Positions 26,778 through 47,095 of a stretch of DNA of 64,000 nt are shown piece by piece. The stretch lies in assembly GCF_036365525.1 (NCBI RefSeq), contig NC_090399.1:15127558-15191557 (forward strand), given 5' to 3'. Numbering within the stretch: position 1 is the stretch's first letter; each line of letters begins with the position of its first letter. The notes under the pieces are model-generated. The model was not told the origin of the DNA and searched no databases. It worked only from the letters and a program-made list of their open reading frames with translations. The stretch comes from Heterodontus francisci (lineage: Eukaryota). A program made the translations under genes and the position numbers.

Positions 26778-29700
26778 CTAAAACATTCGTAACAGGGAAA
26801 AACCTTCAGAAGCATATTTAGGATATTGAAAATAGGTAGAGAACACAGCAATCCCATCGTTGGAGATAATGATTGGCGAATTACTGCAGCCTCGTTGTTC
26901 ATCGCAACCATCTATTATTGCACATACAAAACATCTCACCATCCAATAACTCTTACTTGTGACGTTGGCTGTGGATTAATTGTTGCTGTGAAAATGAGAG
27001 GAAGGGGAATGGGTCAGAATTATATAATGCAAGACACATTAGCATAAACACACACAGACAGACATATTCATATGTGTCAGTAGAACCTTGCGATCAAATG
27101 AATTTGAATAAAATAATTTGCAACAGTATTTTCATATTTAGCTTGTTTTGATTAACCAGCAATGATAATCAATGTAGAATACATCATGTGAAGGCAATTA
27201 CAGCTCACGTACCATACATTGCGTTGGTCCCACTGTGATTTCTGTAATAAGAGAGATGATATTTGAATTTAAAAATTATGCACGTTAAATTCTGAACAAT
27301 CATCAATTCAATAAGATTTGACATTTCCTGTACCTTTTTAGCCTCAGAATAACTGAAAGAAAATAAGGTAGACGTTAATATAATTGTTTTAAGGTAATTA
27401 CTTGCCGATCCTTTCTCTTATTAAAATATCGTAAAACTGACCGTCAACAAACGCACCCACAACCGAATCGATAGGCCGTACAGTGAATCTGGTCACTATG
27501 TGCACGGACATTATAATGATATTTCCTCCGAATATTATTTCTAATGATGTCCTAAGTGTGTTCTAAAATAATTGTTCATACTATAAGTGTCTCTGATTGC
27601 ACTAGTAACGCTGACAAACTCCAGAAATGCATTAACTGGATGACTCCTCATAGCGGCCAGAGCAATTGCCCCGCATTATAGCGAAAGCGTAATAGTTAAA
27701 TAGGGACCAGCGTGTTTCACAGAGTTACAGACCTTTGTTTTGCCAGATCAGTCGACATGTGAGAATCATTATGGTCATGCCCAGCAACGTGAGCGCACCT
27801 CCCAATAGAAGTAGCAGGTTAATATCCCTGCTCTTTTCTCCCCGAATTCTGCCTGAAATAAGGAGTTGAGGTCAAAAAATTAATATGATAAGCTGAGGAA
27901 AAACGATTTTGTTTGCATCAAAAAAGAGCATGATTGTAAAAATACATCAATAAATCAAGTCTTGCATTTCTCTAGCACCTTTCACGGCCCAAGGAAGTCC
28001 TAAAGCACTTCACGGCCGGTGACGTTCTTTTGAAGTATAGCTACGGTTGTAATGTAGGAAACGCAGCAGCCAGTTTGCGCACAGCAAGATCCCACAAACA
28101 GCAATGTGATAATGAACAGATAATTGTTTTTAGTGGTGCCGATTGTAGGCTTAATATTGTCCAGGGCACCGACGATACCTCCCATGCACTTCGTCGAAAC
28201 AGAGTCATGGGATCTTTTACATTCACTTAACAGGGCAGACATCAATTAGAGTCTTGGTTTAAGGTTTCATCCAAAAGCCGGCACCTCTGGCAGTGCAGCA
28301 TTCCTCCATACTGCCCTTGGATATTTGGGCTCAAGCCTCTGGAGTGGGACCATAATAACCAAAATATCAAAATTGGAACAGATTAGTTCCAACCCTATTC
28401 CGCTACAATTCCCACATCAGCTTTAATAAGAGCATTATCTAGGTACTTCCCCCTACATTAAATTTCATGCTCACTCTGAAGTATTCAAGGATTCTGGTGT
28501 CACTGGCAGCTCCCAAATGACGATTGCTTAACGTTGAGACCAGGGGTAAGACTGGGCACTTGACGCAGCATCACAACCCAGCACAGCCTGCTGGACATTG
28601 GACATGGTCGGGGACGCGACACCGGTGGCATTGCATCGGTAGCGTGATACGCACACTTGCAGTTTTCGGTTCTATTGACTTCAATTGGACTTCAATCATA
28701 TTGACTTCAATAAAATGGAATATTGTGTTGTATAACGGGCTGCAGATGGGATTCGGCATGTTTTGCATCAACGCCAAAGACCAATTTCACCTCCCCCATC
28801 ACCCCCGCCCTAAATGTACACATAAATACAAACACATTCCATGGCATAACATATAAGATTTAAGAATGACCTGAAGGAGTTACTCTGAATGATTTCCCCA
28901 TCCCTGGTGCCCAGATTCCTGCGGCCAATTGTCCTCTGGTTAGTTGCAGTCTGCAAATTGACGCTAGGATCTCCCTGGCCTGTAAAAATCGAGTACGGCT
29001 ATAAAATTATAATACCTGTTTAATAAATGATTACTCTAGGATGCCACTTACGCCTCACTTCCAGTTTGGTGCCATTTCCATCTCTCACACCGGTTTCCAT
29101 TAAGCTTACGCGACAGTAATAGGTGTCTGTATCTTTCTCAATCAAGTCGGAGATATTGATGAATATTCTGTTGTTGGTAAATGAATCACTGCCCGATTTT
29201 TCCAGCCGACCTTCATAAAATGGACTCTTGTCCAGTTTGTACCCATCCGGTTTACCCCGTGTCCAGTGAGCAGTGCCGATCAAGGTTACGTTTCCTTCAA
29301 AGTCCAGAGCACAGTTCAGTGTCACCGACTCCCCCTCATCTGCAGTTCGAAAGGGAGGGAACTGGAAAACGGTGACACTTATCTTTCCACCTGCTGAATG
29401 GAAACACTTTAACTTTAAAGGTGATAAGTAGTAAACGTCATTCCTCTCTAACGCTGTCTGACAATTGCCGTTGGTAAAGGTAATTATCATTTTACATTAT
29501 ACAGATATCGAGATGAAAAGTACAACAGCAGTCATTGGAAACGTCAAACACATTACACACAGGCAGGACGTGCTCTAGATATCTAGCAAATCAGTCAGGC
29601 TCTGAAGAGAAGGACAGGTTAGCGTTTGGTTGAGTTGCTCCGCCTTCTCGTCTGAACCAAGAGCTAAACTAATAAAATTCAAGTGTAGATCAATTACCTG

Positions 29701-32060
29701 TGATATTGAATTCTATGAAATTGATATTTTCATTATCCTCGTTCATTCAACCACTGTTTTCTAATTCCAGTTGTTTTCTACCAATGTGGGACAAAATAGA
29801 ACTTGTTTTACATTTCGCCTTAGGCGTTCCTCACTTTACAAGGAACTACAGCAACATTTGTAAAATGGTGCGAATTTGAAAGAAGTTCTGTGATGAGATG
29901 CCGATATGTAAACACATAGTCAGCCACTTATTTGGTTCAGCCCGTGGTGTTATTGACTTCGCGTGAAATCTGACAAGTAAACAATGATATAATGTCGTAA
30001 ATGTTGGTTCTATATTTTGGCAAGAGGAAGTTGTTACGCTAACGCTCCGTCCTTTATTTCAATTAAGGTGTTAACCTATTTATGTCGAACATGTGAACGT
30101 CTTCCCTAAGATTGACGAAAGATGCTGATATCATGTCAGCATGTGATCCGTCTCTTTACATTGTGCTTATTGCTGCAGCCACGTCTCATTCCACATGCGC
30201 AGAACATTGGGAGAATCTAGAACAAGGGGGCACGATATTAAAATTAGAGCGAGGCCGTTAAGGAGGCAAATCGGGAAGGTCTTTTTCACTGGTCATCTTT
30301 TAATTGCCAGTGGGATGATTTCCTCCGCTTTATCTGTGGTGACATTGTAAACAAATGCGTCGTGTGTTCCAATGTTTCTGACAAAAATTCTATAGTTTGA
30401 TCAGAAATTTCAATGCCGAAAAAAATCTCACTATATTTGCGAAATCGGTACCCAGCTGAATGAGCGGAAATAATCCCCAGTGGCCATAAAAATGTACGTG
30501 GAAAATCCCAGAACACTGTGGGCGTAATTTTAGCTTTTGGCGATAGTGGGACACAACAGATATCAAATTCGCTGCCCATTATACACATCACATCCGTACA
30601 CAAAATTAAAATAATAATAATGGTGTATTATTTCTTGTAGTTCATATTCCGATTCCGACTGATAAGATAATAGCGGAAATTTCCCTGCACGCCCAGTATG
30701 TCTAAGTTAATAAACTTAGACTTGAGATGCAGACAATGGGTGAGGTGGGCATCAGGACACAATCAGAGAACCCAGGAGCATTGCGAGTCATATAAAAAGG
30801 AAGACAGGGAACGAGTAAGACAAATGCACAGATGAACAGTGAGATACTGTAAGTAATCGGAGGAGATGCTGAGTAGTCGACGGGAGAATGTGGTTGAATA
30901 TCAGAGCGTGGCATTGAGAAAGCAACAGCAGAAGAGAAACAAAAAGGCAAGAAGGACAGGGCTAGAAAAACATAAATGAGAAGAAGGGGACAAGCAGTGG
31001 GGCAGCTATAGGATTTAATACTGCTATATTGCTTTAATTTGGGATATGAACAACGCGCAAGAACTGCTTGTTCTGATACTGGGAAGAGACAATTATTTGC
31101 ATGCAGTACAACTTTTTTTTCGCGGTGGGCCGAAGGTCCTGTTTCTACGCTGTACGACTCAATGGATTGGTAGAAAGAGCCTGGTGTCGCCAGAAAATTT
31201 TGTGGAACACATAAAGGAAAAGGCTCACAAGGGGATGTTCACTGATGATTACACAGTGTTCAATTCCATTGGAAATTCCTCAGATAATGAAGCAATCCAT
31301 GCTGGCAGGCAGCAAGACCTGGACAACATCCAGGCTTGAGCTGACAATTGGCGAGTAAAAGAAGTGCCAGCGATGCTCACATCTCGGGAATGAATTAAAA
31401 ACAAACGATTATGCGTTTATAAATGTAAAAAAAACGCTGAACTTGTATAGCTCCCCCATCACATCGTCGAATTGTATAAAATTGATTCATAATTACTTGT
31501 TTTGGAGTACAGCCACTGCTGTCATGAAATCAAATGCAGCAGTCAATTTATGTCAGGAACATCCCACAAATGGCTTAAACCGAATGAAGATTTTCGCCTG
31601 GAATTTCTGTTCACTCCATCTCCCGGCGTAACTTCGGCGGAAGATCGGGTAAAAGAAATAACAACCAATCTTCCACGCAAATTACGGCGGCGACCGAGAG
31701 AAAGTCTCGAACACACTGTAATCTCACTTAGAGGAGCCTGGTCAATTGCTTAACACAGTGATATCACTATTTCTTAGTTAATGCGCCAGCTTTCTGTAAG
31801 CTGCAGGGGGTAAAATTAACAGTTGATACCCATGAGCCTTTTTATGACTATTTCAAATAGTAAAATTATCAGTTAGAAGCTGAAAATGCTTTCTTAAAAG
31901 CAAGTCTAGTTTTTGCAAGATTTTAAAATTTAAACTAACGGTATTTTCTCGCCTATCGCCATTCTCCATAAGAGGCAACAACAAAAAAATCAATGAACTC
32001 ACCCGTGCATATTGCAAAGAAAATCAACAGCATTGAAGTGGGCTGTTGACTTAATAGCAT
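26673..32060 (-). CDS. NCR3: NKp30/NCR3-like single VJ-Ig-domain type I membrane receptor (spliced; about 218-232 aa depending on the last exon). Family member, 1:1 orthology not established
   Basis: Exons 32060-32003, 29390-29052, 27852-27733, 27352-27334, 27241-27213, 26985-26957 and 26777-(26673), all with GT-AG sites and compatible phases. Product: MLLSQQPTSMLLIFFAICTG-GKISVTVFQ…C…W…YYCRV…GNGTKLEVR-RRIRGEKSRDINLLLLLGGALTLLGMTIMILTCRLIWQNK-VILRLK-RNHSGTNAMY-ATINPQPTSQ-QNKGSAYKMKPD…. Confidence 0.8.
26957..26985 (-). CDS. NCR3: Exon 6, 29-nt cytoplasmic micro-exon (ATINPQPTSQ)
   Basis: ctctcattttcacag|CA ACA…CAA|gtaaga, phase 1-0. Confidence 0.65.
27213..27241 (-). CDS. NCR3: Exon 5, 29-nt cytoplasmic micro-exon (RNHSGTNAMY)
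   Basis: tctctcttattacag|A AAT…TAT G|gtacgt, phase 2-1. Confidence 0.65.
27334..27352 (-). CDS. NCR3: Exon 4, 19-nt cytoplasmic micro-exon (VILRLK)
   Basis: ttattttctttcag|TTATTCTGAGGCTAAAAAG|gtacag, phase 1-2. Confidence 0.65.
27733..27852 (-). CDS. NCR3: Exon 3, stalk + transmembrane
   Basis: ttatttcag|GC…AAA G|gtctgt, 120 nt, phase 1-1; INLLLLLGGALTLLGMTIMILTC hydrophobic helix. Confidence 0.85.
27956..28350 (-). mobile_element. DeuSINE (SacSINE1/AmnSINE1-like) in intron 2
   Basis: Deu-domain and tail: gtaaaagatcccatg…tgtttgtgggatcttgctgtgcgcaaactggctgctgcgtttcctacattacaac…aatgcaag. Confidence 0.8.
29052..29390 (-). CDS. NCR3: Exon 2, VJ-type Ig domain of the NKp30-like gene
   Basis: cattcagcag|GT…AGG C|gtaagt, 339 nt, phase 1-1. 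B-strand C, C-strand W, DTDTYYC and J-like GNGTKLEV in one exon; aligns by eye to human NKp30 (VSQPP…EG…C…IGSVTW…GRL…YVCRV…GNGTRLVV). Confidence 0.93.
31227..31405 (+). mobile_element. Zenon-like LINE scrap in intron 1
   Basis: GMFTDDYTVF…QQDLDNIQA plus tail remnant. Confidence 0.7.
32003..32060 (-). CDS. NCR3: Exon 1, leader peptide of the NKp30-like gene
   Basis: aagATG CTA…MLLSQQPTSMLLIFFAICT + G|gtgagt; 58 nt, phase 1, matching the V exon; hydrophobic core MLLIFFAIC. Confidence 0.75.
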
Positions 32061-35449: not shown

Positions 35450-36800
35450 CCCCATCTGATCCCTTAGCACTAAGGCAGTCCCAGTCAATATTAGGGAAGT
35501 GAAAATCACCTACTATTACAACCCTATATTTCCTACACCTATCTTGATTTCCCTACACATATGCTCCTCCAATTCCCTCTGACTATTGGGGGGGCCTATA
35601 GTATAATCCCATCAAAGTGATCACCCCTTTCTTATTTCTAAGTTCTATCCCTATGGCCTCGCTGGACGTTCCCCCCAGGATATTCTCTCTAAGTACTGCC
35701 GTGATGTCCTCCCTAATCAATAGTGAACCCCCCCCACCCCTCCTGTCTTACCTACATCTCTGTCACGCTGGAAGCATTGGTACCGGGAGCATTGAGCTGC
35801 AAATCCTGCCCATCCCTCAACCACGTTTCCGTAATAGCTATAATATCACAATCCCATATACCGATCCATGCTCTGAGTTCATCTTACCTGTAAGGCTTTT
35901 TGCATTAAAGTAAATATAGTTTAGCCTGCCAGACCTTCCACACTCCTTGTCCTGCCCCTGCCCCTGCCTGGCCTGCCTACTGGACTTGCTTACTTTAACC
36001 TCTACATTTGTCTCAACTATCTCATCAGAGAGACTACTACTTTGGGTCCCACCCCCCACCCCCCCCTACCAGACTAGTTTAAACCCTCCCGAGTACTACT
36101 TGCAAACCTCCCCGCAAGGATATTGGTCCCCTTCCAGTTCAGATGCACCCTGTCCCTCTTGTGCAGGTCACCTCTGCACCAGAAGAAATCCCAATGATCC
36201 AAGTAGCTGTAGCCCTCCCGCCTACGCCAGCTCTTCAGCCACACATTCATTTGCCTTATCCTCCTATTCCTACCCTCACTAGCACGTGGCACAGGGAGTA
36301 ATCCTGAGATTACAACCCAAGAGGTCCTGCTTTTTAACCTTCTGCCTAACTCCCTATATTTACTTTGCAGGACCTCATCTCTCTTCCTGCCTACGTCATT
36401 AATACCAATATGGACCACGACCTCTGGCTGCACACCCTCACCTTTCAGAATGTCCTGCAGCTGCTCCGAGACATCCTTGACCCTAGCACCAGGGAGGCAA
36501 CATACCATCCTGGAGTCTCGTTTGCGGCCACAGAAACACCTATCTGCACCCCTTACGATAGAATCCCCAATCACTATAGCTCTTCCACCCCTTTTCCTCC
36601 CCTGCTGTGCCCTCCGTGGTGCCACGAACTTGGCTGTTGCTGCTTTCCCCTGGGAGGTCATCCCCCCCCTCCCCCCCTCCCCCCCCCCCCCCCCCCAACA
36701 GTATCGAAAGCGGTATATCTGTTTGAGAGGGGGATGGCCACAGGGGACTCCTGCATTACTTGCCTGCGCCTACTATTCCGTTTGGTGGTCACCCATCCCT
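35450..36800 (-). mobile_element. CR1 ORF1 esterase + start of ORF2
   Basis: AIVIGDSIVRG, VVVHIGIND, VHLNWKG; then YFNAKSL…. Confidence 0.88.
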
Positions 36801-38773
36801 AAAATCATGTTAGTTTCGTCAGCCATAATACATTGTCTTAAGTGCACACTATCTGTTCGCAATCCGGTTATTTCATTTTTTGCGTTCTTCGAGTACCTTT
36901 ATTGTCGACTTACATCTCAAAAGACCTTAGTTTGGGATTTTCCAGTCACCGTGCATTAACAGGCACAAGGTGACGTTGATGTACCTCATTCCGCTGTTTC
37001 AACCCCCTGGGCCAAAGTAATGTCCTTCTGCCCTGCCCTTTCTCAGGTCGATCGCCCATGACATGTCCGTCCTTGCGCACTTTCTGAACCTTGTCGACCC
37101 GCTTTCCCCTTCTTGTCCGTTTCCCATTACCGGGAATCAACAATTTGTGTCGTTTACAGAAGTGTTTGCAACACTTTATTCCCAATCGAAGAGCTCACAG
37201 CCTTTGATATCCAAAATGATCAACTCCCAGAGCCGGGTAACACGCCGAAGAATAAGGAGGAACTCGAGATGGGGGTGGGGGGGGGGGGGGGGGGATTTCA
37301 CATGATGCTGCTGGTGGGAGTGGGGACCAAGGGCTTTGATCTGAAGCTGGTGAGGGAAGGTGATAGAGTCTGAGGGGGAGGTGGGTTGAACTCGTTGGGC
37401 AGAGTGAGAGTTGTGGGCCGAGGAGTGCATGGAAAGGAATGAGGCTGATTGTATAATGGCGTGAAGTCAAAGTGGAGAGGGTGATTGACTGCAGAGTTCA
37501 GGAGAAGAACAGGTGAGCTGATATGAGTTCCACGCTGAGCAGATGGGGTAGAAGGGGAGCTGGGAAACATAGGCAAAGAATCATTGAGAAGGGAGGAACG
37601 GCATCTGCTGGATGGCCTCCCATCTTCAACTTTTCATGAGCTCATTCAAAAGATAAACTGAACTGAAGACAAAAGATACATAGCACTAATGGGAAATGAG
37701 ATTGTAAAATGTACTGGGCGGGATCCAATGTGAAACATCACTTAGTGGTCAAGCGTACATTTGTCTTCGGACTTCCAATTTGACTTAATTCTTGTTATTT
37801 AACGGAGGCAGTGATCAATAACTAGGTTGTAGTATAATACAACTGGGAAGATGGAAATCTGTGTATTTTAGCGAGACAGAACATTAAAGGCCACAAATGA
37901 GAGGGGACAATCTTGCCATATGGTGCATTGGTCAGTTACTGTAAAATGATTGTTGCATTAGCGTCAATATGCATCCTAAATTTCAGGAAGAGTATGTGGG
38001 TTTGATGTGATTAATATTTGCAGAGATGGAGGAATTCTCAATTAGATTTGAAGCAATGAGACAATTTGGCATTTCCCCCAAATTTACCTGCAGGGCCAAT
38101 ATAACGAAAAGAAATTGTTATGTATTCAGGTACCTGATCTCAAATATTTCATTTGTCGCGGTTGCTTAATGAAAATCGTGGATATGGTATCACCAAATTC
38201 GCATCCGTTGATGCAAATACAATGGCGTCACAAAATGCGTATCATTTATGTTCTTGAGAGGATAACTAAAAATGGCGTGAAATTTAACGTGAATGTCGTA
38301 TTAAGGTCATAATTGGTCACATTGTCGGTAAGTTCAGTGAAGGCAGGACTGTAAACGTGTTCGTCATTGAATTGAAATGCTGCTGATGTTGAGATTCTCA
38401 TTTTACACGTAAGCTCATTTACATCGACAAGCCTTGCAAACCGACCTGTCTGCATGCGGTTGGTTTACTTCGTACGTGACTGCGCTCAGATCAGCGTCGA
38501 GTCTGTTCAGGCTGTCTGCTGCTCGGCATGTTAGTTATTTTCCAGTCAGCGTCACTATTTATAATACTCTGTCCGCAAAGCGTGCACTTTAGATCCGCTT
38601 ATTGAACCCACTACGGACAGAAAGTATCTGTGAGACAGAGCTCAACTCTATCTCAATACAATTGTACACGATGTTCAGAGAACGGCACTTAAAAAAAAAC
38701 ATTCTTGGTATGCAGGTGTCACATTTAATACCTAATCCTGGTTACATTCGGAAGGTGTAGATTGGGCAAAGTC

Positions 38774-39073
38774 ACGGCACAGTAGTTAGCACCACAGCCT
38801 CACAGCTCCAGCGCCCTGGGTTCGGTTCTGGGTATCGCCTGCTTTGCAAGTTATCCCGGTGACCTCGTGGGTTTCCTCCGCGTGCTCCGGTTTCCTCCTA
38901 CATGCCAAAGACTTGTGGGTTGATAGGTAAATTGTCCATTGTAAAAATTGCCCCCAGTGTTGGTGGGGATGTGAGAGGGGAAACATGCGATTAATTTAGT
39001 ATAAATGGGTTCTTGATGGTCGGCGTGGGCCGAAGGGCCTGTTTCGGTGCTGTATTTCCCTCTCTATGACTCT
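38774..39073 (+). mobile_element. HE1-type V-SINE (inside an older minus-strand copy of the 1181-type SINE, ~38700-39370)
   Basis: ggcacagtagttagcaccacagcctcacagctccag… and V-domain; right flank reads as the reverse complement of the 1181 SINE core/head. Confidence 0.8.
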
Positions 39074-40471
39074 AAGGTGGTCTGGCACTTCAAAGCGTAG
39101 TTAAGTATCAACCGCTTTGGACTGGGACTGGAGTTACATTTTGGCCAGGCCCTGCAAGGATTCGTTCCCTTCGGACATCAGTGAACCAGTTGTGCTTTAC
39201 AACAACAGCTTCAGTCACTTTGACCAATGCTAATTTTTTCTTGACATTTTGTTTTTAAAAAACAACTTAAATACTCAATTTGCTTTGATGGCGATTTGAA
39301 CTCACCCTTATTCAGGTTATCAATCCAACCCTGTGTATTACTAGTCTAGCAACATGTCCACCTCACGACCGCTGCTAACAGGAACGGAAGACCCGATCCA
39401 GATTCATGCCAAGTGCGCAGACCCTTTAAATAGAAGCAATTCATTTATTATCAAACGCTTTATTTGTGAGCATCTCTTCCAAACGTTTTTCGCAAACAAC
39501 TTTCAGTTCAAATACACAATCCCTTTCTGTGCAGCAGCAGACACAGTTATGATACTGTTCATGTATCAGGCTGGGATGTTTTAATACTGTGGATGCCGGA
39601 TACCCTCAGCGAGGTCCTACAACACAAGGGAGAAGATGCGCGTTTCTCTGAAAAGCAGAACCATCGAATTGCTTGTAAGGCAAGTGAAGGTATCTCAGGG
39701 GTGCCCTGCACTTCATGTATGCAGCAGCAAGCTGGGTTGGTCATGCCCTGAAAGGAGCATCACGTGTTATTAGATGAATTGCCGGCATCCTTTCCAGCCT
39801 GTGCTCTTCCCCGCCCGATCATCCGCCCGTGAGGAGGGAAGCGGAAATCTCGCACGAACTTTCTAACATTCCAGACAGTCTTTTCAGACGGAAGTTTGCG
39901 TTAGTGCATTCAGCTATTTCTTGCAAAGGTCAGCTGGTCACTCAAAAAAGGAAATGGATCAATTTAAAGAGGAGTTTTCCAGACTGGAATTCCCACCGGG
40001 GCTGTGGAATTCAGACACTGCTCAGCACCAGTGAAAATGCGCTGCAGGTGGCCAATCGACGCACGCATTAAAATACAGCACATGAATGGCTCGACTGATC
40101 TTTACTAATTTCCCCATTTACACACAAACTTCACGGGTTCAGTGTATTTGTCACGTTGGAGACGTCCGAACTCCGGGACCACAGCCGGGGGCATTTAGTA
40201 AGACTGTCGCAGCTAAATAAGAAGTATAAAAACGTCTGATAATAAGATTCAAACATAAGCAGCGTTGCAATAAATGAAACTCGCAGGTGAACGCAATTGA
40301 AAGGAGATTATTTTTATATGGACGGTACTCTCGGAAACCAAATAATCTCGCACCTTTTATTTCAAGGCGTCTCACTTAGGTATGATGAAATTTTTATTTT
40401 TGGTTATCGTTTGAAAGACTTGAAATTCAATACGGTCGGGTCTAAGGACAACTAAGCTTACTTTCTAAGAG

Positions 40472-40812
40472 GTCAGAGAGTGAATCTCACTGTTTTCCAG
40501 TATGCTGACACACAAATTCAGTAGAGGGAGAGTGAAAGCTTCTGAAGTGCACCATGAATTTTGCAGAAATGGGGTTCACTGTTACATGGATACACAGTTA
40601 CGTGGACAGGGGCTGAAAGAAACACTGGTGATTTGGACGAATAATACATTTCTAAAGGGTGGCTTGAGAACTCGGACATCGGTTCATTTAACAACATTAG
40701 AAAGATCATTATGGCCTCCGGCCTGGTGGAGAGAGTCTCAGAGACCTGTTTCTGTGGAATGTAATGGCAAAGTGATAGGGAGGTAGCAACGGGAACAGAC
40801 TGCATGCGAGGG
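40472..40812 (+). pseudogene. Disabled NKp30-like VJ exon, inverted paralog of 29052-29390
   Basis: ag|GT CAG AGA GTG AAT CTC ACT GTT TTC CAG (cf. ag|GT GGA AAG ATA AGT GTC ACC GTT TTC CAG). Across frameshifts it reads QRVNLTVFQY…VEGE*KLLKCTMNFAE…GYTVTWT…DLDE*YISKGWLENSDIGSFNNIRKIIMASGLVERVSETCFCGM*…GSNGNRLHAR G|gtaagt; 341 nt vs 339 nt. Confidence 0.85.
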
Positions 40813-41109
40813 GTAAGTGGTAACTGTAGTTTTCATATAATGCTGTTTTAAATGTTAGTTTATTTTTTAATAAAATATAGGGGTTGATTTAATCTTGCAA
40901 GCCGGATATGAACGAGTCCTTGTGGATCGATGCCCGTTAGAGAAACCGCGGAACATTCATTTGATTTGATGACAAATATCGATGCAATGTAACCCTGCAG
41001 CAGAACAAGCGAATTTCTGATCATTCCTTCCCCATTAAAACGTGTATTATTTTATTTCATTAATGTTCTTCCTCGTTAAGTGCACAAATATGTTTTCTTA
41101 GAGCCCCGA

Positions 41110-41685
41110 GTAAATACTGTATGAAACGTTAGATAGGCCACAGCTGGTGTACTGTGTGCAGTTCTGGGCACCACACTATAGGAAGGATGTGATTGCACTG
41201 GGAGGTTGCAGAAGAGATTCACCAGGATGTTACCTGGGCTGGAGCATTTCAGCTATGAAGAGAGACTGAAAAGGCTAGGGTTGTTTTCCATAGAGCAGAG
41301 AAGGCTGAGGGGGTACATGATTGAGGTATAAAAAATTATGAGGGGATTTGATAGGTTAGATAGGAAGAAACTTTTTCCCTTAACAGAGGGGTCAATAACC
41401 AGGGGGCATAGATTTAAGGTAAGGGGCAGGAGGTTTAGAGGCGATTTGAGGGGAAAAAAACTCGCTCAGAGGTTGCAATCTGGAACACATTGCTTGAAGA
41501 GATGGTAGAGGCAGGAACCCTCACAACATTTAAGAAGTATTTAGATGAGCACTTGAAACGCCATAACAAACAAGGCTACGGACCAAGTGCTGGGAAATAA
41601 GATTAGAATAGTTAGGTGCTTGATGGTCAGCACAGACACGATGGGCTGAAGGGCCTGTTTCTGTGCTGTATAACTCTATGACTGG
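41110..41685 (+). mobile_element. CR1 3' fragment
   Basis: LVRPQL.YCVQFW…LGLFS…; tail gggcctgtttctgtgctgtataactctatg. Confidence 0.88.
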
Positions 41686-41780
41686 CAAAATCAGTCATCT
41701 TAAGAAGGACGAAGTAAGCAGACAGACGGTCATCAATTTAACTCATGTTCTACAGGACCTACTGGCATTTCTGCCTTTCC

Positions 41781-42330
41781 TTTCCCCAAAAGTATACTAT
41801 ATTCATTAAATTTGTAAGACATGCATTGCAAAACATTTCAAATTGGACATTTTAGAGAAGTGCAATAGAGATCAGATTCTTTCGATACAGCACACGAGGT
41901 GCCTCACAGCTCTTGCTATTCCATTTTATATACAATGTACATTTGCAATACGCAGCAAATACATTCTCTGGTGCATACCGCCCGAGGAGTTTTGTACAGG
42001 TTCCAGCCCTGTTTGGGACCTTACACAGAGGCCTTTCCCCATTGAGCCTTTGCGGCAGCTGCCCCAAGCTTTAGTGCGTCCCTCAGCACGTAGTCCTGGA
42101 CCTTGGATTGTACCAGGCTGCAACACTCGGTCATGAACAACTCTTTGCGCTGGAAGACCAGCAAGTTTTGGGCAGACCAAAGCACGTCTTTCACCGAGTT
42201 GATGGTCCTCCAGTAGCAGTTGATGTTTATGTCGGTGTGCGTCCCTGGGAACAGCCTGTAGAGCACAGAGTCCTGTGTTACAGAGCTGATGAACCTCCAC
42301 AAAAACCACTGCATCTCTTTCGAAACTTGC
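41781..42330 (-). mobile_element. Tx1/L1-clade LINE 3' end
   Basis: VLYRLFPGTH…CYWRTINSVKDVLWSAQNLLVF…VQDYVLRD C-terminal ORF2 pattern, followed by an AT-rich 3'UTR. Confidence 0.7.
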
Positions 42331-43360
42331 CTGTTGTTATTGTCATACTCACACTAAGAAAGCAGTGGTGAACTAATTATATGTACCTTTGCAAATTGTT
42401 TATTTCAAGAGGTCATCTTTCTGGTTATGCGGGCCGTAATTGTAGTTGTTGAGGGCTGTCAGAGGAATATAAGAGTTGGGGGAGGTAAATACTTTTATAA
42501 AGTGTTGTTCAGTTCAATATTTTTATCCAGTTGGTATGTGAACAGTTACATACGATTTCCCCAGAAACGTGGAACAAGGAGAATCCTAAATAACGCTGTT
42601 AGAATGCTGATACATGGGATGAAGGGTTTCAAGGGATGTGTGGAAAGGAAATGAGAGTTCCCTCAAAAATCGGATCATTAAGTGATATGGGGAGATGCTC
42701 ATGCCTGAGGACTGACGGCTGAGTGGTCTTTTCTGCCTCTGGATTTTCTCGGTTGTATGCGTTCTGGTTTTATTTAGGGATAAACTAAATAAATAGTCCA
42801 TCTGGATTTTTTAAATTATTATTTTAAATTACGATTTGGTCATTTTTAGTAAGGTTGAGTTATTGGTTGCTGCCTTCAAGATATGAAGGTTCATTAAGTT
42901 CTTTTGGTTCTATCTCTACAGATTTTAATCACATTCTGAACAAATTTGATTTTAGACCAGAGGAAGTCGGCCCTGATTATACAACCAGAATAATTGAATT
43001 GATATGAATGGAACTTCCTTACAACTTTTCTGAGGCCGAATCTATGTTTCTGGAGCTGGTTGAATTGTGTGAAATGTCATCCATCTCAGTCTGGTACTGC
43101 AGCGAATACAACGAAAGACATGGGACAGGTGGCAAGAGAATTGTATTCGTTTTTAACCTTCTAAGCGAGAATCCAATGTTTAAAAGCGCAAGGGAGAGAA
43201 TAGAGCCAATAAAGTATCAAATAGTTGAGTCTCAATGTATGTTTGAAAATCCTTAGATTACAGGAGGAATAGAAGACAGAGGAAGGTATTAAGTGTTCCA
43301 CATTTTTGAAAACTTGGAGAGGAATATGATAGCAGAGGAGACATTGCCATGTGTATAGTA

Positions 43361-43432
43361 CCCCTGGTGCTCTAACGGGTAAGGTACTGGCCTCTTAAGT
43401 CAAGCGTATGGGTTCAAATGCTCTCTAGGGTG
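43361..43432 (+). pseudogene. Degenerate tRNA, tRNA-Arg(CCT)-derived
   Basis: cccctggtgctctaacgggtaaggtactggcctcttaagtcaagcgtatgggttcaaatgctctctagggtg is colinear with vertebrate tRNA-Arg-CCT as recalled; stems mismatched, anticodon now CTT. Confidence 0.55.
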
Positions 43433-43454
43433 CTGTCAATATTTACAGTCAACC

Positions 43455-43830
43455 CTGGCTCAATGGGGAGCAATCTGGCCTCTGGGTCAGAAAGTTATTG
43501 GTCCCACTCCAGAAAGTCGAGCACAACAAATCTAGGCAGATATTTGAGTGCGGTACTGGTACAGAGCAATCGGAGATGCCGTCTTTCAGATGAGACGTTG
43601 AACCGAGGCCCCGACTGCTCTTTCAGATGCCTGTAAAAGATCCTGTGGCACTATTTCGAAGTACAGGAGGGAGGTGATCCCTAAATCAACTTCACAAAAA
43701 AAGAGTGTTGGGCGCAAGTTTACTGCTGCGTTTCCTACTTTGCAACAGTGACTACACTTCAAATAGTCACTGTAAAGCGAGTTGGGAAGTCCTGAGGTCC
43801 TGAAAGGCGCTATATAAATGCAAGTCTTAA
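43455..43830 (+). mobile_element. DeuSINE (SacSINE1-like)
   Basis: gatgccgtctttcagatgagacgttgaaccgaggcccc…gtaaaagatcc…aaaggcgctatataaatgcaagt. Confidence 0.85.
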
Positions 43831-44490
43831 TTTATTTTTTCATTTGAGTACATTGGAGAAACTCTGAATCTACTGTGCATTTGAAGAGAATGCAAAATGA
43901 AAACAAACGGTTTACCTTATACCTAAAATTACAGGGAGGAATATAGGAATTATTAAATATCAGAAGATTTTTAAGTACAATCGGAACCAAAAAAAAATTG
44001 ATTTATAATATAATGTTGAGACCGGCGGAAATTTGAAAATAACTGCGTCTTGGTAGCACCGACGTTATAATGCACTATCCGATGAATTAAATTCTGTAAC
44101 TTTGTGGTTATATAAATACTTTATAGGTTAATGTTAATAAACAACAGCAGGTTGACCAGTTTACAGTGTTAAATGGAGAAAATTGATTCCTTCATTGGCC
44201 GTCAGCAGAGTATCAAAAGTGCAAGTGCACACAAAATCCATCAGTACTAGGGTCAAATTATATATAACGTTACAGGTAAAAGGAAAACCTGCAGCTCTGA
44301 AATCGAACCAAAAAAAAAAAACGTTGCAAACAAACAGCAGACTAGTGTCAGGGCGTGAAATTCAGTTTCAGCGACAGTGAAAAAATGTGAGTGATTCGGC
44401 CGCCCAGTATACTCCCAGCTGGATTGTCCTTTCCAACACTCTGGAAGCAAGTTGAAAATCTACCCAAATAAATCGATGGATCGAGTCATT

Positions 44491-44830
44491 ATGAGCAACA
44501 ACACTAGGCTGTGCTTACAAAACGTGGAATACTATTGTCATAATTACACAATACATCAATAGAACTTGCTCTTTGATCTTTGATGACAAAGAACTGTCTA
44601 ATAGAATGAAGCTGTCAATTCGTGTGATGTATTTGTAGATACATCTTCAAATATACATTTCCAGGCTTTCTTGACTAAATTCATCGAAATGCTGGTGACA
44701 AATGCAATGAATGGAAATTTATTGCTGTATTTAAAGGATTGCGAAGCTGGAAAATCAGGATGCTTGCAATGAATTGCAGAGGTAACACCATGAACTAGTC
44801 CACAATCCACCAACTGCACATCGAGTGACT
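44491..44830 (+). pseudogene. Possible highly decayed B7-family-like IgV exon
   Basis: One frame reads QNVEYYC(44536)…L**QRT…MNGNLLLYLKDCEAGKSGCLQ*(44770)IAEVTP. TGA codons sit at the expected Trp (+15/16) and second Cys (+78) positions; no clear splice sites. Confidence 0.3.
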
Positions 44831-45479
44831 CCCAATGTACCAACTAAAATTTCATGTACCATTACAGCGAGCAATGGTGTCTGCATCTACTGTTCCTGTG
44901 GCAATGTATTCCACGCTCCAAACATCTTCTGCACGAGAAAATTTCTCTTAAACTTTCTCCTCACTTATGGTGACAATTTGAAATAGACGAGCCTTCACCA
45001 TTTACGCCAGTCAGTGGAAATAGTTATTTGCTATTTCCCCCACCAATTCCCTACATGTTTTTAAAACTTCTATTAAATCGATTCCTTGTCATTGGAAGCA
45101 AATATGGATCAATGGTTGATCACTTCTACATGACCTGTTTTTTTACTATCGCCAGTTTAATTTACTCCTTTGAATGGTGAGTTAATGTTCACTTGAAATC
45201 TTTCGCTGTGTGTACAATGATTACCCACACTAGATGCACCAGTAAGTGCTGCACACATTGAAAGTCTGAACTGATGTTAGCTAGATTCTCATATTTTGTA
45301 AAAACAGCTTCACAATCTCATTACTACAATGTAGATAAACTCGAGCACACCACAATGTATTATAGTTCATCGGCTACAATATTGGTTTTGTTGAAAATAA
45401 ACATGGTTTACACGCCGTGATGAAAATAAATCGACATTCATCATTTTTGAATTATTTATTCAGTGGATGGTTGTATTTT

Positions 45480-45690
45480 TAAAAATTCATTCACGGGATC
45501 CGGGTGTCGCTGGCTAAGCCAGCATTTATTGCACATCCCTAATTGCCCTTGACAAGGTGGTGGAGAGGTGCCTTCTTGAACCGCTGCAGTCCATGTGGGT
45601 TAGGTACACCCATAGTGCTGTTAGGAAGAGAGTTCCAGGATTTTGAAACAGCGGCAATGAAGGAATGGCGATATAGTTCCAAGTCAGGAT
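45480..45690 (-). mobile_element. Zenon-like LINE 3' tail
   Basis: gccagcatttattgcacatccctaattgcccttga, reverse complement of the 11820-11894 tail. Confidence 0.8.
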
Positions 45691-45913
45691 GCAAATTCAA
45701 TCTAGCAGCTGCATTGAGGAAGCAATCACAGCCGATTCGCTGTCTTGATTTCCAGGGATTCTGTGATTTGCTGTTGGATTACTATCTCCTAATTCATTAC
45801 CAACGATCCACCAGTTCCTAAATTATATCAGCAATGGTGACCATTTGTAATTATTTGATCTTCCCTTTGAAAATAGTAGCTAAAAATTTTGGGCTGGATT
45901 CTGCTACCAATCA

Positions 45914-47095
45914 AACATGGTTCAAACATGGACAAAAGAGCTGAACTCAAGATGTCAGGTGAAAGTGACCGCCCTTGACATCAAGGCAGCATTTGACCGA
46001 GTAAGGCATCAAGGAGCCTTAGCAAAACTGGAGTCAATGGGAATCAGGGGGAAAACCCTCCGCTGGTTGGAATCATACCTAGTACAAAGGAGATGGTTGT
46101 GGTTGTTGAAGGTCAATCATCTCAGTTCCAGAACATCACTGCAGGAATTCCTCCAGGCCCAACCATCTTCAGCTGCTTCATCAATGACCTTCCTTCAATC
46201 ATAAGGTCAGAAGTGGGAATATTCGCTGATGATTGCACAATTTTTAGCACCATTTGCAACTCCTCAGATACTGAAGCAGTCCATGAAAAATGCAGCAAAA
46301 CCTGGACAATATCCAGGCTTGGGCTGATAAGTGGCAAGTAACATTCTAGCCACACAACTGCCAGGCAATAACCATCTTCAACAAGAGAGAATCTAACCAT
46401 CTCCCCTTGACATTCAATGGCATTATGATTGCTGAATCCCCCACTGTCAACATCCTAGGGGTTACCATTGACCAGAAACTGAACTGGAGTAGCCATATAA
46501 ATACCGTGGCTACAAGAGCAGGTCAGAGGCTAAGAATCCTGTGGTGAGTAACTCACCTCCTGACTCCACAAAACCTGCCCACCATCTACAAGGCACAAGT
46601 CAGGAATGTGATGGAATACTCTCCATTCCCTGGATGTGTGCAGCTCTAACAATGCTCAAGAAGCTAGAAACCATCCAGGACAAAGCAGCCTACTTGTTCA
46701 GCACCCCATCCACACACATTCACTGCCTCCACCACCGACGCACAGTGGCAGCAGTGTGTCCCATCTGTAAGAGGCACTGCAGCATAAGAGTCTCCTGCAC
46801 CAAGTCTCCTTAGACAGCACCATCTAAACCCGCAACCTCTACCACCTAGAAGAACAAGGGCAACAGATGCATGGGAACACCACTCCTGCAAGTTCCCCTC
46901 CAAGCCATACACCATCCTGACTTGGAACTATATCGCCGTTCCTTCACTGTCTTTGGGTCAAAATCCTGGAACTCCCTTCCTGACAGCACATGGACTGCAG
47001 CGGTTCAAGAACCACTATCTCCTCAAGAGCAATTAGGGATGGGCAGTAAATGCTGTCCTAGCCAGCGATGCCTACATCCCACGAATAAAGAAAAA
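45914..47095 (+). mobile_element. CR1-Zenon-like LINE, 5'-truncated
   Basis: ALDIKAAFDRV, GIFADDCT, tail to …cccacgaataaag. Confidence 0.88.

What the first reader, a model, noticed from the sequence alone, without database searches (positions are those of the whole stretch)
40472..40812. Hidden head-to-head NKp30-like pseudogene missed by the ORF track
Seen: colinear homology to the intact V exon from acceptor to donor: TVFQ, EGE..L.C, W, LD, G.LE.S, SF.N, S.L.E....C, NG..L..R and the same phase-1 gtaagt donor, broken by at least three stops and several frameshifts. It lies on the opposite strand about 8.4 kb upstream of the intact gene's ATG, so the two are divergent. Inference: an old inverted duplication followed by loss, i.e. 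birth-and-death evolution of an NK-receptor cluster.
Basis: seen in the sequence. Interest (0 to 1): 0.7.

Follow-up and report, generated by a model that had tools for sequence, protein, structure and literature searches.

The report
Transcribed dead NKp30-like gene in shark
This is a broken copy of a shark NKp30-like immune-receptor exon that points away from an intact relative 8.4 kb off; its old splice signal is still joined to a downstream exon in one probable RNA data set, so it is likely an ordinary old, transcribed pseudogene.

Summary
Confirmed. Window 40472-40812(+) aligns end to end with the intact V exon at 29390-29052(-): about 60% nucleotide identity, score 574, reached by 0 of 1000 shuffles. 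It carries 4 stops and 3 frameshifts. NCBI names the intact neighbour NCR3-like; it has a nurse-shark counterpart and a likely inhibitory tail. It sits in a cluster of 17 V-exon hits in 734 kb on the MHC class I contig.

Refinements: the dead exon is equally far from four intact copies and likely predates their tandem duplications; the next repeat unit lacks it. Orientation is mixed across the cluster, so head-to-head is unremarkable. No leader, membrane or tail exons were found, and no closer protein among 193 sequences compared.

New: one probable RNA run splices the old donor (GT..AG) to a non-homologous exon at 42922, and two such runs cover about 39773-45002 in pieces (one sample). It is likely a non-coding transcribed pseudogene. 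The scan has noted similar dead NCR3 copies in other sharks and elsewhere in this genome. Ordinary birth-and-death; low interest.

The parts
40472..40812 (+). Decayed NCR3/NKp30-like VJ-type V exon (4 stops, 3 frameshifts); acceptor decayed to GAG at 40469-40471
40813..42921 (+). 2109-nt GT..AG intron opened by the ancestral phase-1 donor GTAAGT; contains repeat fragments 41116-41684 and 41786-42329
   Evidence: joint in one X5 contig; repeat mask
39773..40812 (+). Likely first exon of the transcript: pieces of probable RNA contigs cover the upstream DNA and the dead V exon; no joint to the old acceptor seen
42922..45002 (+). Second exon of the transcript, not homologous to NCR3 membrane or tail exons; its acceptor lies in a stretch whose one other detected copy is on C10
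39808..40239 (.). Block with two GC boxes and ETS-like motifs near the 5' edge of RNA cover; likely promoter; 88% identical to its copy in the next repeat unit, about background
   Evidence: motif patterns recalled
40236..43388 (.). About 3.15 kb (dead exon, intron, start of exon 2) absent from the paralogous repeat unit upstream of copy L002
32003..32060 (-). Intact NCR3-like gene: leader exon (ATG at 32060)
   Evidence: matches P0153
29052..29390 (-). Intact VJ-type V exon (NCBI's isoform X1 has one more residue, fitting an acceptor 3 nt upstream)
27733..27852 (-). Intact gene: transmembrane exon, no charged residue in the hydrophobic core
26957..27352 (-). Intact gene: three small cytoplasmic exons (27352-27334, 27241-27213, 26985-26957), first tyrosine motif
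   Evidence: matching P0001
18052..18177 (-). Intact gene: last coding exon with two further tyrosine motifs (ITIM-like)

Best explanation
The feature is a broken V exon of an NKp30 (NCR3)-like gene that likely arose by an old duplication within the shark MHC-chromosome NCR3 cluster and now likely survives only as part of a non-coding spliced transcript. Shown: colinear homology, 4 stops, 3 frameshifts, opposite orientation, and a GT..AG joint from the old donor to 42922 in one probable RNA contig. Inferred: a gene of the L001 subfamily was duplicated into the opposite orientation well before the tandem duplications that made copies L001-L004. It lost coding capacity, and its leader, membrane and tail exons were lost or decayed past detection. 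It was carried in the repeat unit and later deleted from the next unit. A GC/ETS-rich stretch near 39800 likely starts transcription, reads through the dead acceptor, and the intact donor picks the next usable acceptor. No receptor can be made in the ancestral frame; the RNA is most likely a by-product.
For: Alignment far above shuffles and real-sequence tiles. A DNA profile of the four closest intact exons finds it at E 5e-26, and its own best matches are those four exons. Its best protein matches are L001-L004 at 32-35% among 173 proteins plus 20 exon translations. Difference to L001-L004 is 0.40-0.44 per site (JC about 0.59) against 0.12-0.20 in non-coding blocks between repeat units. Mismatches are flat across codon positions (p 0.34-0.71), unlike 4 old intact pairs (p 0.015 or less). 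A genome DNA search found one copy only. The next repeat unit joins the two flanks directly. No significant membrane or tail match lies on + after it. RNA-type cover stops at the donor in X5 and X6, is zero over the first unique part of the intron (40864-41110) and in other unique bins, and X5 joins 40812 to 42922. No Pfam match at E<0.1 for the 4 transcript-region ORFs tested and no Rfam match. C29 holds most MHC class I hits.
Against: The runs' RNA status is a guess, both come from one sample and study, and the joint rests on one contig at depth about 6, in 1 of 4 runs laid. The flat codon pattern is weak evidence because 3 young intact pairs are also flat (p 0.41-1.0), and dN/dS of about 0.5-0.6 overlaps theirs. 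Tree placement inside or beside the subfamily is unresolved (AU p 0.42 and 0.43). Deletion from unit 2, rather than insertion into unit 1, is inferred by parsimony. The lesions are seen in one individual only. The search for relatives covered annotated proteins, not other shark genomes.
Confidence: 0.86

Rival explanations
1. The transcript is a functional cis-regulatory long non-coding RNA, or marks an enhancer-promoter, that tunes the divergent inhibitory NCR3 gene; the dead exon is kept for its donor.
For: Spliced RNA-type contig and bounded cover. The donor GTAAGT is intact although the exon is 40% diverged. The promoter-like block and one ETS motif persist in the next unit.
Against: The transcript start lies about 7.5 kb from the intact gene's leader, so it is not a shared bidirectional promoter. 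The block's 88% identity is close to the 80-87% of neighbouring non-coding blocks. The exon and intron are missing from the next unit. Contig depth is low, and a 6-nt donor can survive by chance.
Confidence: 0.06
2. It is the dead relic of a distinct old subtype that is still intact in other sharks or rays, not a quickly killed duplicate of the L001 subfamily.
For: dS of about 0.84-1.10 to L001-L004 implies an old split, and dN/dS below 1 allows a coding period. A position outside the subfamily is not rejected (AU p 0.36; 0.43).
Against: None of 173 fetched proteins scored above the best own-genome copies (L001-L003), and none exceeded 35% identity. Grouping with the L006 subtype is rejected (AU p 0.035).
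Confidence: 0.06
3. A recent inverted copy of the adjacent gene, or an assembly or chance artefact.
For: It is adjacent and inverted; one small tree put it next to L001 with support of only 47/10.
Against: Divergence is about 3 times that of neutral DNA between repeat units. It is equidistant from four copies. DNA contigs reproduce the sequence. Chance is excluded by 0 of 1000 shuffles.
Confidence: 0.02

Closest known systems
Shark NCR3 (NKp30) multigene family; nurse shark NCR3 QTT61901.1 (P0002) and NCR3-like XP_067865596-600 (P0153, P0001, P0154, P0155)
   Same: Single VJ-type V exon with phase-1 ends; same subfamily motifs; located on the contig that carries MHC class I. PMC12227049 (passages read) calls NCR3 a non-rearranging, MHC-linked VJ-domain gene and lists eight nurse shark NCR3 accessions.
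   Different: No open frame; no leader, membrane or tail exon detected; the donor is spliced to an unrelated exon.
Human NKp30/NCR3 (PDB 3noi, 9fww, 6yjp, 3pv6) and the mouse Ncr3 pseudogene
   Same: These are the best four PDB matches of the intact neighbour's V domain (E 3e-9 to 5e-9). PMC6514059 (passages read) reports NCR3 as a pseudogene in mouse strains, so loss of NCR3 copies is known.
   Different: Human NKp30 is activating, with a transmembrane arginine. The shark neighbour has an uncharged membrane core and three tail tyrosine motifs (likely inhibitory), and the dead exon is one of many paralogues.
Transcribed unprocessed pseudogenes in NK-receptor clusters (KIR, Ly49, NITR; birth-and-death model)
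   Same: Tandem cluster with intact and broken copies; the broken copy keeps a splice donor and is likely transcribed. The general model is recalled; only search listings were seen.
   Different: A single surviving exon spliced to a non-homologous exon; no function tested.

Membership tests
NCR3/NKp30 family (as a derived pseudogene) | V-set domain with the J-like strand in the same exon, no RSS split | tested here: met
   Colinear with the intact V-set exon through the G-x-G-like end and donor. An RSS scan of 39700-43700 gave one degenerate hit inside the exon's 3' end on the minus strand, with 1 heptamer and 2 nonamer mismatches allowed; not treated as real.
NCR3/NKp30 family (as a derived pseudogene) | Closest relatives are NCR3 proteins | tested here: met
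   Best matches are L001-L004, P0001 and shark NCR3-like proteins; the intact neighbour's best PDB hit is human NKp30.
NCR3/NKp30 family (as a derived pseudogene) | MHC linkage | tested here: met
   Same contig C29 as 60 of 64 MHC class I exon hits, the nearest about 17 Mb away: chromosome-level linkage only.
Functional NCR3 receptor gene | Open V-domain reading frame | tested here: not met
   4 stops and 3 frameshifts.
Functional NCR3 receptor gene | Leader, transmembrane and cytoplasmic exons | tested here: not met
   None detected on + near the exon by nhmmer, tblastn or pairwise alignment; the spliced exon 2 is non-homologous.
Functional NCR3 receptor gene | Binding of B7-H6 and signalling | not testable with these tools
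   No protein is predicted.
Transcribed unprocessed pseudogene | Genomic duplicate that keeps splice signals (not a retrocopy) | tested here: met
   Homology stops at exon ends with donor and decayed acceptor in place; no fused leader or membrane exon.
Transcribed unprocessed pseudogene | Transcription | tested here: inconclusive
   A GT..AG joint in one contig and bounded cover in 2 of 4 runs; run type is a guess and there is one sample.

The most novel reading that the evidence does not exclude
A dead NKp30-like exon has been re-used: its surviving donor drives a spliced long non-coding RNA, transcribed away from an inhibitory NCR3 gene, that sets whether or how strongly that receptor is expressed. 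That would be a shark counterpart of the promoter switches known from mammalian NK-receptor clusters (recalled).
Probability: 0.06. Interest if true: 0.55.

Novelty: new member of a known kind. Interest (0 to 1): 0.2.

Why it matters
It is a small, well-supported example of gene turnover in the shark NCR3 cluster, the oldest known NK-receptor family with germline-joined VJ exons. It helps order events in the cluster: the dead copy likely came first, tandem duplication followed, and the copy was then lost from a sister unit. It would matter more only if the spliced RNA regulates the neighbouring receptor, which is untested.

Tried and rejected
Plain tblastn of the intact V peptide missed the exon; DNA or frameshift-aware alignment was needed.

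My first read-through put the last segment in the wrong frame (3 stops); one search corrects it to 4 stops.

A 96-nt 'stalk' exon at 28979-28884 of the intact gene is open in frame but absent from NCBI and nurse shark proteins, so I dropped it.

Exon 2 as a decayed membrane exon: rejected, score 145 against a shuffle maximum of 202. A leader remnant in 36800-40400: score 184 against 191. Upstream intron 204 against 312 and downstream intron 150 against 155, neither above shuffles.

A 16-nt tandem duplication as the cause of the middle frameshift (12 of 16 match): not adopted, because removing it gives a C-to-W spacing unlike the subfamily.

L005 and the partial hits at C29:15094k and 15333k as further pseudogenes: rejected, they are open.

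No tRNA in the window, no Rfam hit in 37000-46000, no Pfam hit for the ORF across the exon-2 acceptor.

No RNA holder is on record as RNA. Runs X7 and X12 gave no listed cover of the unique transcript parts; this is no evidence either way.

Papers not held: Kinlein 2021 (title seen in reference lists only), Flajnik 2012, Ohta and Flajnik 2015. These papers and their supplements may already describe NCR3 pseudogenes. Five searches listed no title on this locus; that is weak evidence.

Full report
Observation. The intact exon at 29390-29052(-) encodes a V-set domain (Pfam V-set E 4e-10). Its best four PDB matches are human NKp30. Window 40472-40812(+) aligns to it from acceptor to donor: 286 of 478 columns identical including flanks, score 574, reached by 0 of 1000 dinucleotide shuffles (max 229). 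The best unrelated tile of 542 scored 198, and a frameshift-aware protein alignment scored 91 against at most 35 in 40 shuffles. In the ancestral frame the exon has four stops (40533, 40642, 40773, 40776) and three frameshifts, giving 341 versus 339 nt. The GTAAGT donor is intact and the acceptor has decayed to GAG. DNA contigs X1 and X3 show no change inside the exon; they are the same sample and X1 may be the assembly's source.

The intact neighbour. Its exons are leader 32060-32003, V, membrane 27852-27733, three small tail exons and a last exon 18177-18052. The product matches NCBI's NCR3-like proteins P0001 and P0153 and is 75% identical over V to nurse shark NCR3 P0002. The membrane core is uncharged and the tail has three tyrosine motifs, so it is likely inhibitory (inference; ITIM consensus recalled). 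Human NKp30 is activating through a transmembrane arginine (PMC6514059, passages). The window is G000:C29:15127558-15191557. The genome search gave 24 matches, 23 on C29, in clusters near 14.8-15.4 and 31.0-32.0 Mb. C29 also holds 60 of 64 MHC class I exon hits.

The cluster. A DNA profile found 17 V-exon hits in 734 kb. Fifteen are open (one checked by hand) and two are broken: this exon and a partial duplicate at C29:15248118-15248275. This is a lower bound: an earlier unreviewed note (e1-9845464) describes a further remnant near 15.36 Mb that my profile did not report. Strand order is - - + + + + - (+) - (-) - + + + + + -, so opposite orientation is common. An orphan leader, a close paralogue of the L004 leader, lies at C29:15192024-15192302 with no V exon found behind it.

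Age and origin. The dead exon differs from L001-L004 at 0.40-0.44 of aligned codon sites (JC about 0.59, dS 0.84-1.10). Non-coding blocks of the repeat units differ at 0.12-0.20, and the V exons of L001 and L002 at 0.04. It therefore likely split well before the tandem duplications and is no copy of the neighbour in particular. Mismatches are flat across codon positions, unlike four old intact pairs, but three young intact pairs are flat too, so this is weak. Trees place it with the L001 subfamily in the wide sense; a position inside the own-genome clade or outside the cross-species clade is not resolved (AU p 0.42, 0.43), and grouping with the L006 subtype is rejected (p 0.035). In the next repeat unit the flanks at about 40235 and 43389 are joined directly. 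The genome search found only one copy of the exon, so deletion from that unit is the simpler reading. Among 173 fetched proteins and 20 exon translations, none scored above the best own-genome copies and none exceeded 35% identity. Other shark genomes could not be searched as DNA.

Transcription. The run search listed no holder on record as RNA, but two guessed RNA runs, X5 and X6, hold about half the words. Their contigs cover about 39773-40812, stop at the donor, and give no cover in the unique bins 37000-38655, 39208-39759 and 40864-41110, where the DNA runs are continuous. One 1024-nt X5 contig joins 40812 to 42922 across a 2109-nt GT..AG intron and runs to 43645; X6 covers 42920-45002 in pieces. 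The GT..AG ends point to the + strand. The joint was seen in 1 of 4 runs laid; X5, X6 and X7 are one sample. No joint to the old acceptor was listed. One X6 contig starting at 42920 has 97 unplaced bases, which may be another upstream exon; this is unexplained. Exon 2 has no detectable homology to membrane or tail exons. Its acceptor lies in a stretch with one other detected copy, 71-78% identical, on C10. The longest sense ORFs of the modelled transcript are 94, 82 and 72 codons, off the ancestral frame, with no Pfam match at E<0.1; Rfam gave nothing. GC boxes and ETS-like motifs lie at 39811-39895, and that block is no more conserved than nearby non-coding DNA.

Mechanism. Shown: homology, lesions, orientation, absence from the sister unit, and one spliced contig. 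Inferred: old duplication, early loss of coding, later tandem duplication of the unit, and read-through from an upstream promoter-like stretch with the surviving donor using a cryptic acceptor. The regulatory-RNA reading is not excluded but has no positive support beyond the splice, and the start is about 7.5 kb from the intact gene's leader.

Comparison with what is known. PMC12227049 and PMC10751288 (passages) describe NCR3/NKp30 as a non-rearranging VJ gene in the MHC, and the first lists eight nurse shark NCR3 accessions. The primary shark NCR3 paper (Kinlein 2021) was seen only as a reference title and may already report pseudogenes. Earlier scan notes (unreviewed, seen after my reading was formed) report other dead NCR3 copies in sharks; none lay near this window.

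Verdict. The feature is real and correctly read: a new member of a known kind, a likely transcribed unprocessed pseudogene in a known multigene family. Interest 0.2.

Noticed in passing
G000:C29:15192024-15192302 (+), about 0.5 kb past the window end (L022): Orphan promoter plus leader exon, a close paralogue of the L004 leader, with no V exon found behind it; likely a second gene remnant in this repeat unit.
   Followed up: partly
G000:C29:15248118-15248275 (-) (L003, L027): Partial 5' duplicate of a V exon about 180 bp downstream of the intact L003 V exon, frameshifted and truncated.
   Followed up: partly
window 29734-29686 (-): NCBI isoform X2 (P0001) begins with a different, hydrophilic N-terminus that reads from this stretch inside the leader-V intron; it would lack a signal peptide.
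   Followed up: no
window 28979-28884 (-): An in-frame 96-nt AG..GT-bounded stretch 72 nt after the V exon could be an optional stalk exon; it is absent from annotated isoforms, and no match was found in the L002 unit.
   Followed up: partly
G000:C29:15286144-15286467 (+) (L005): A V exon that appears to start after the first strand, as in sawshark P0006 and in P0029; likely a conserved short-V subtype rather than a pseudogene.
   Followed up: partly
G000:C29:15265828-15266189 (+) (L004): Its V exon is 83-89% identical to L001 and L003, but its leader and membrane exons are much more divergent, and a membrane lysine may be present; possibly an activating partner or a chimera.
   Followed up: no
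window 42624-42954; G000:C10:95104702-95108823: A roughly 330-bp stretch holding the exon-2 acceptor has one other detected copy, split in two, on C10, about 14 kb from an exon with a Pfam Tissue_fac match (likely a class II cytokine receptor).
   Followed up: partly
window 42920-43161, run X6: A contig has 97 unplaced bases upstream of the exon-2 acceptor, suggesting an alternative upstream exon.
   Followed up: no
G000:C29:14973301-14973649 (+) and 15421486-15421834 (-): Two V exons at opposite ends of the cluster share the same translated 3' end in opposite orientation, hinting at a recent large inverted duplication.
   Followed up: no
G000:C10:95119895-95132127 (L070, L071): Open frames that look like retroviral or LTR-element gag/pol/env pieces; seen only, by recalled motifs.
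   Followed up: no
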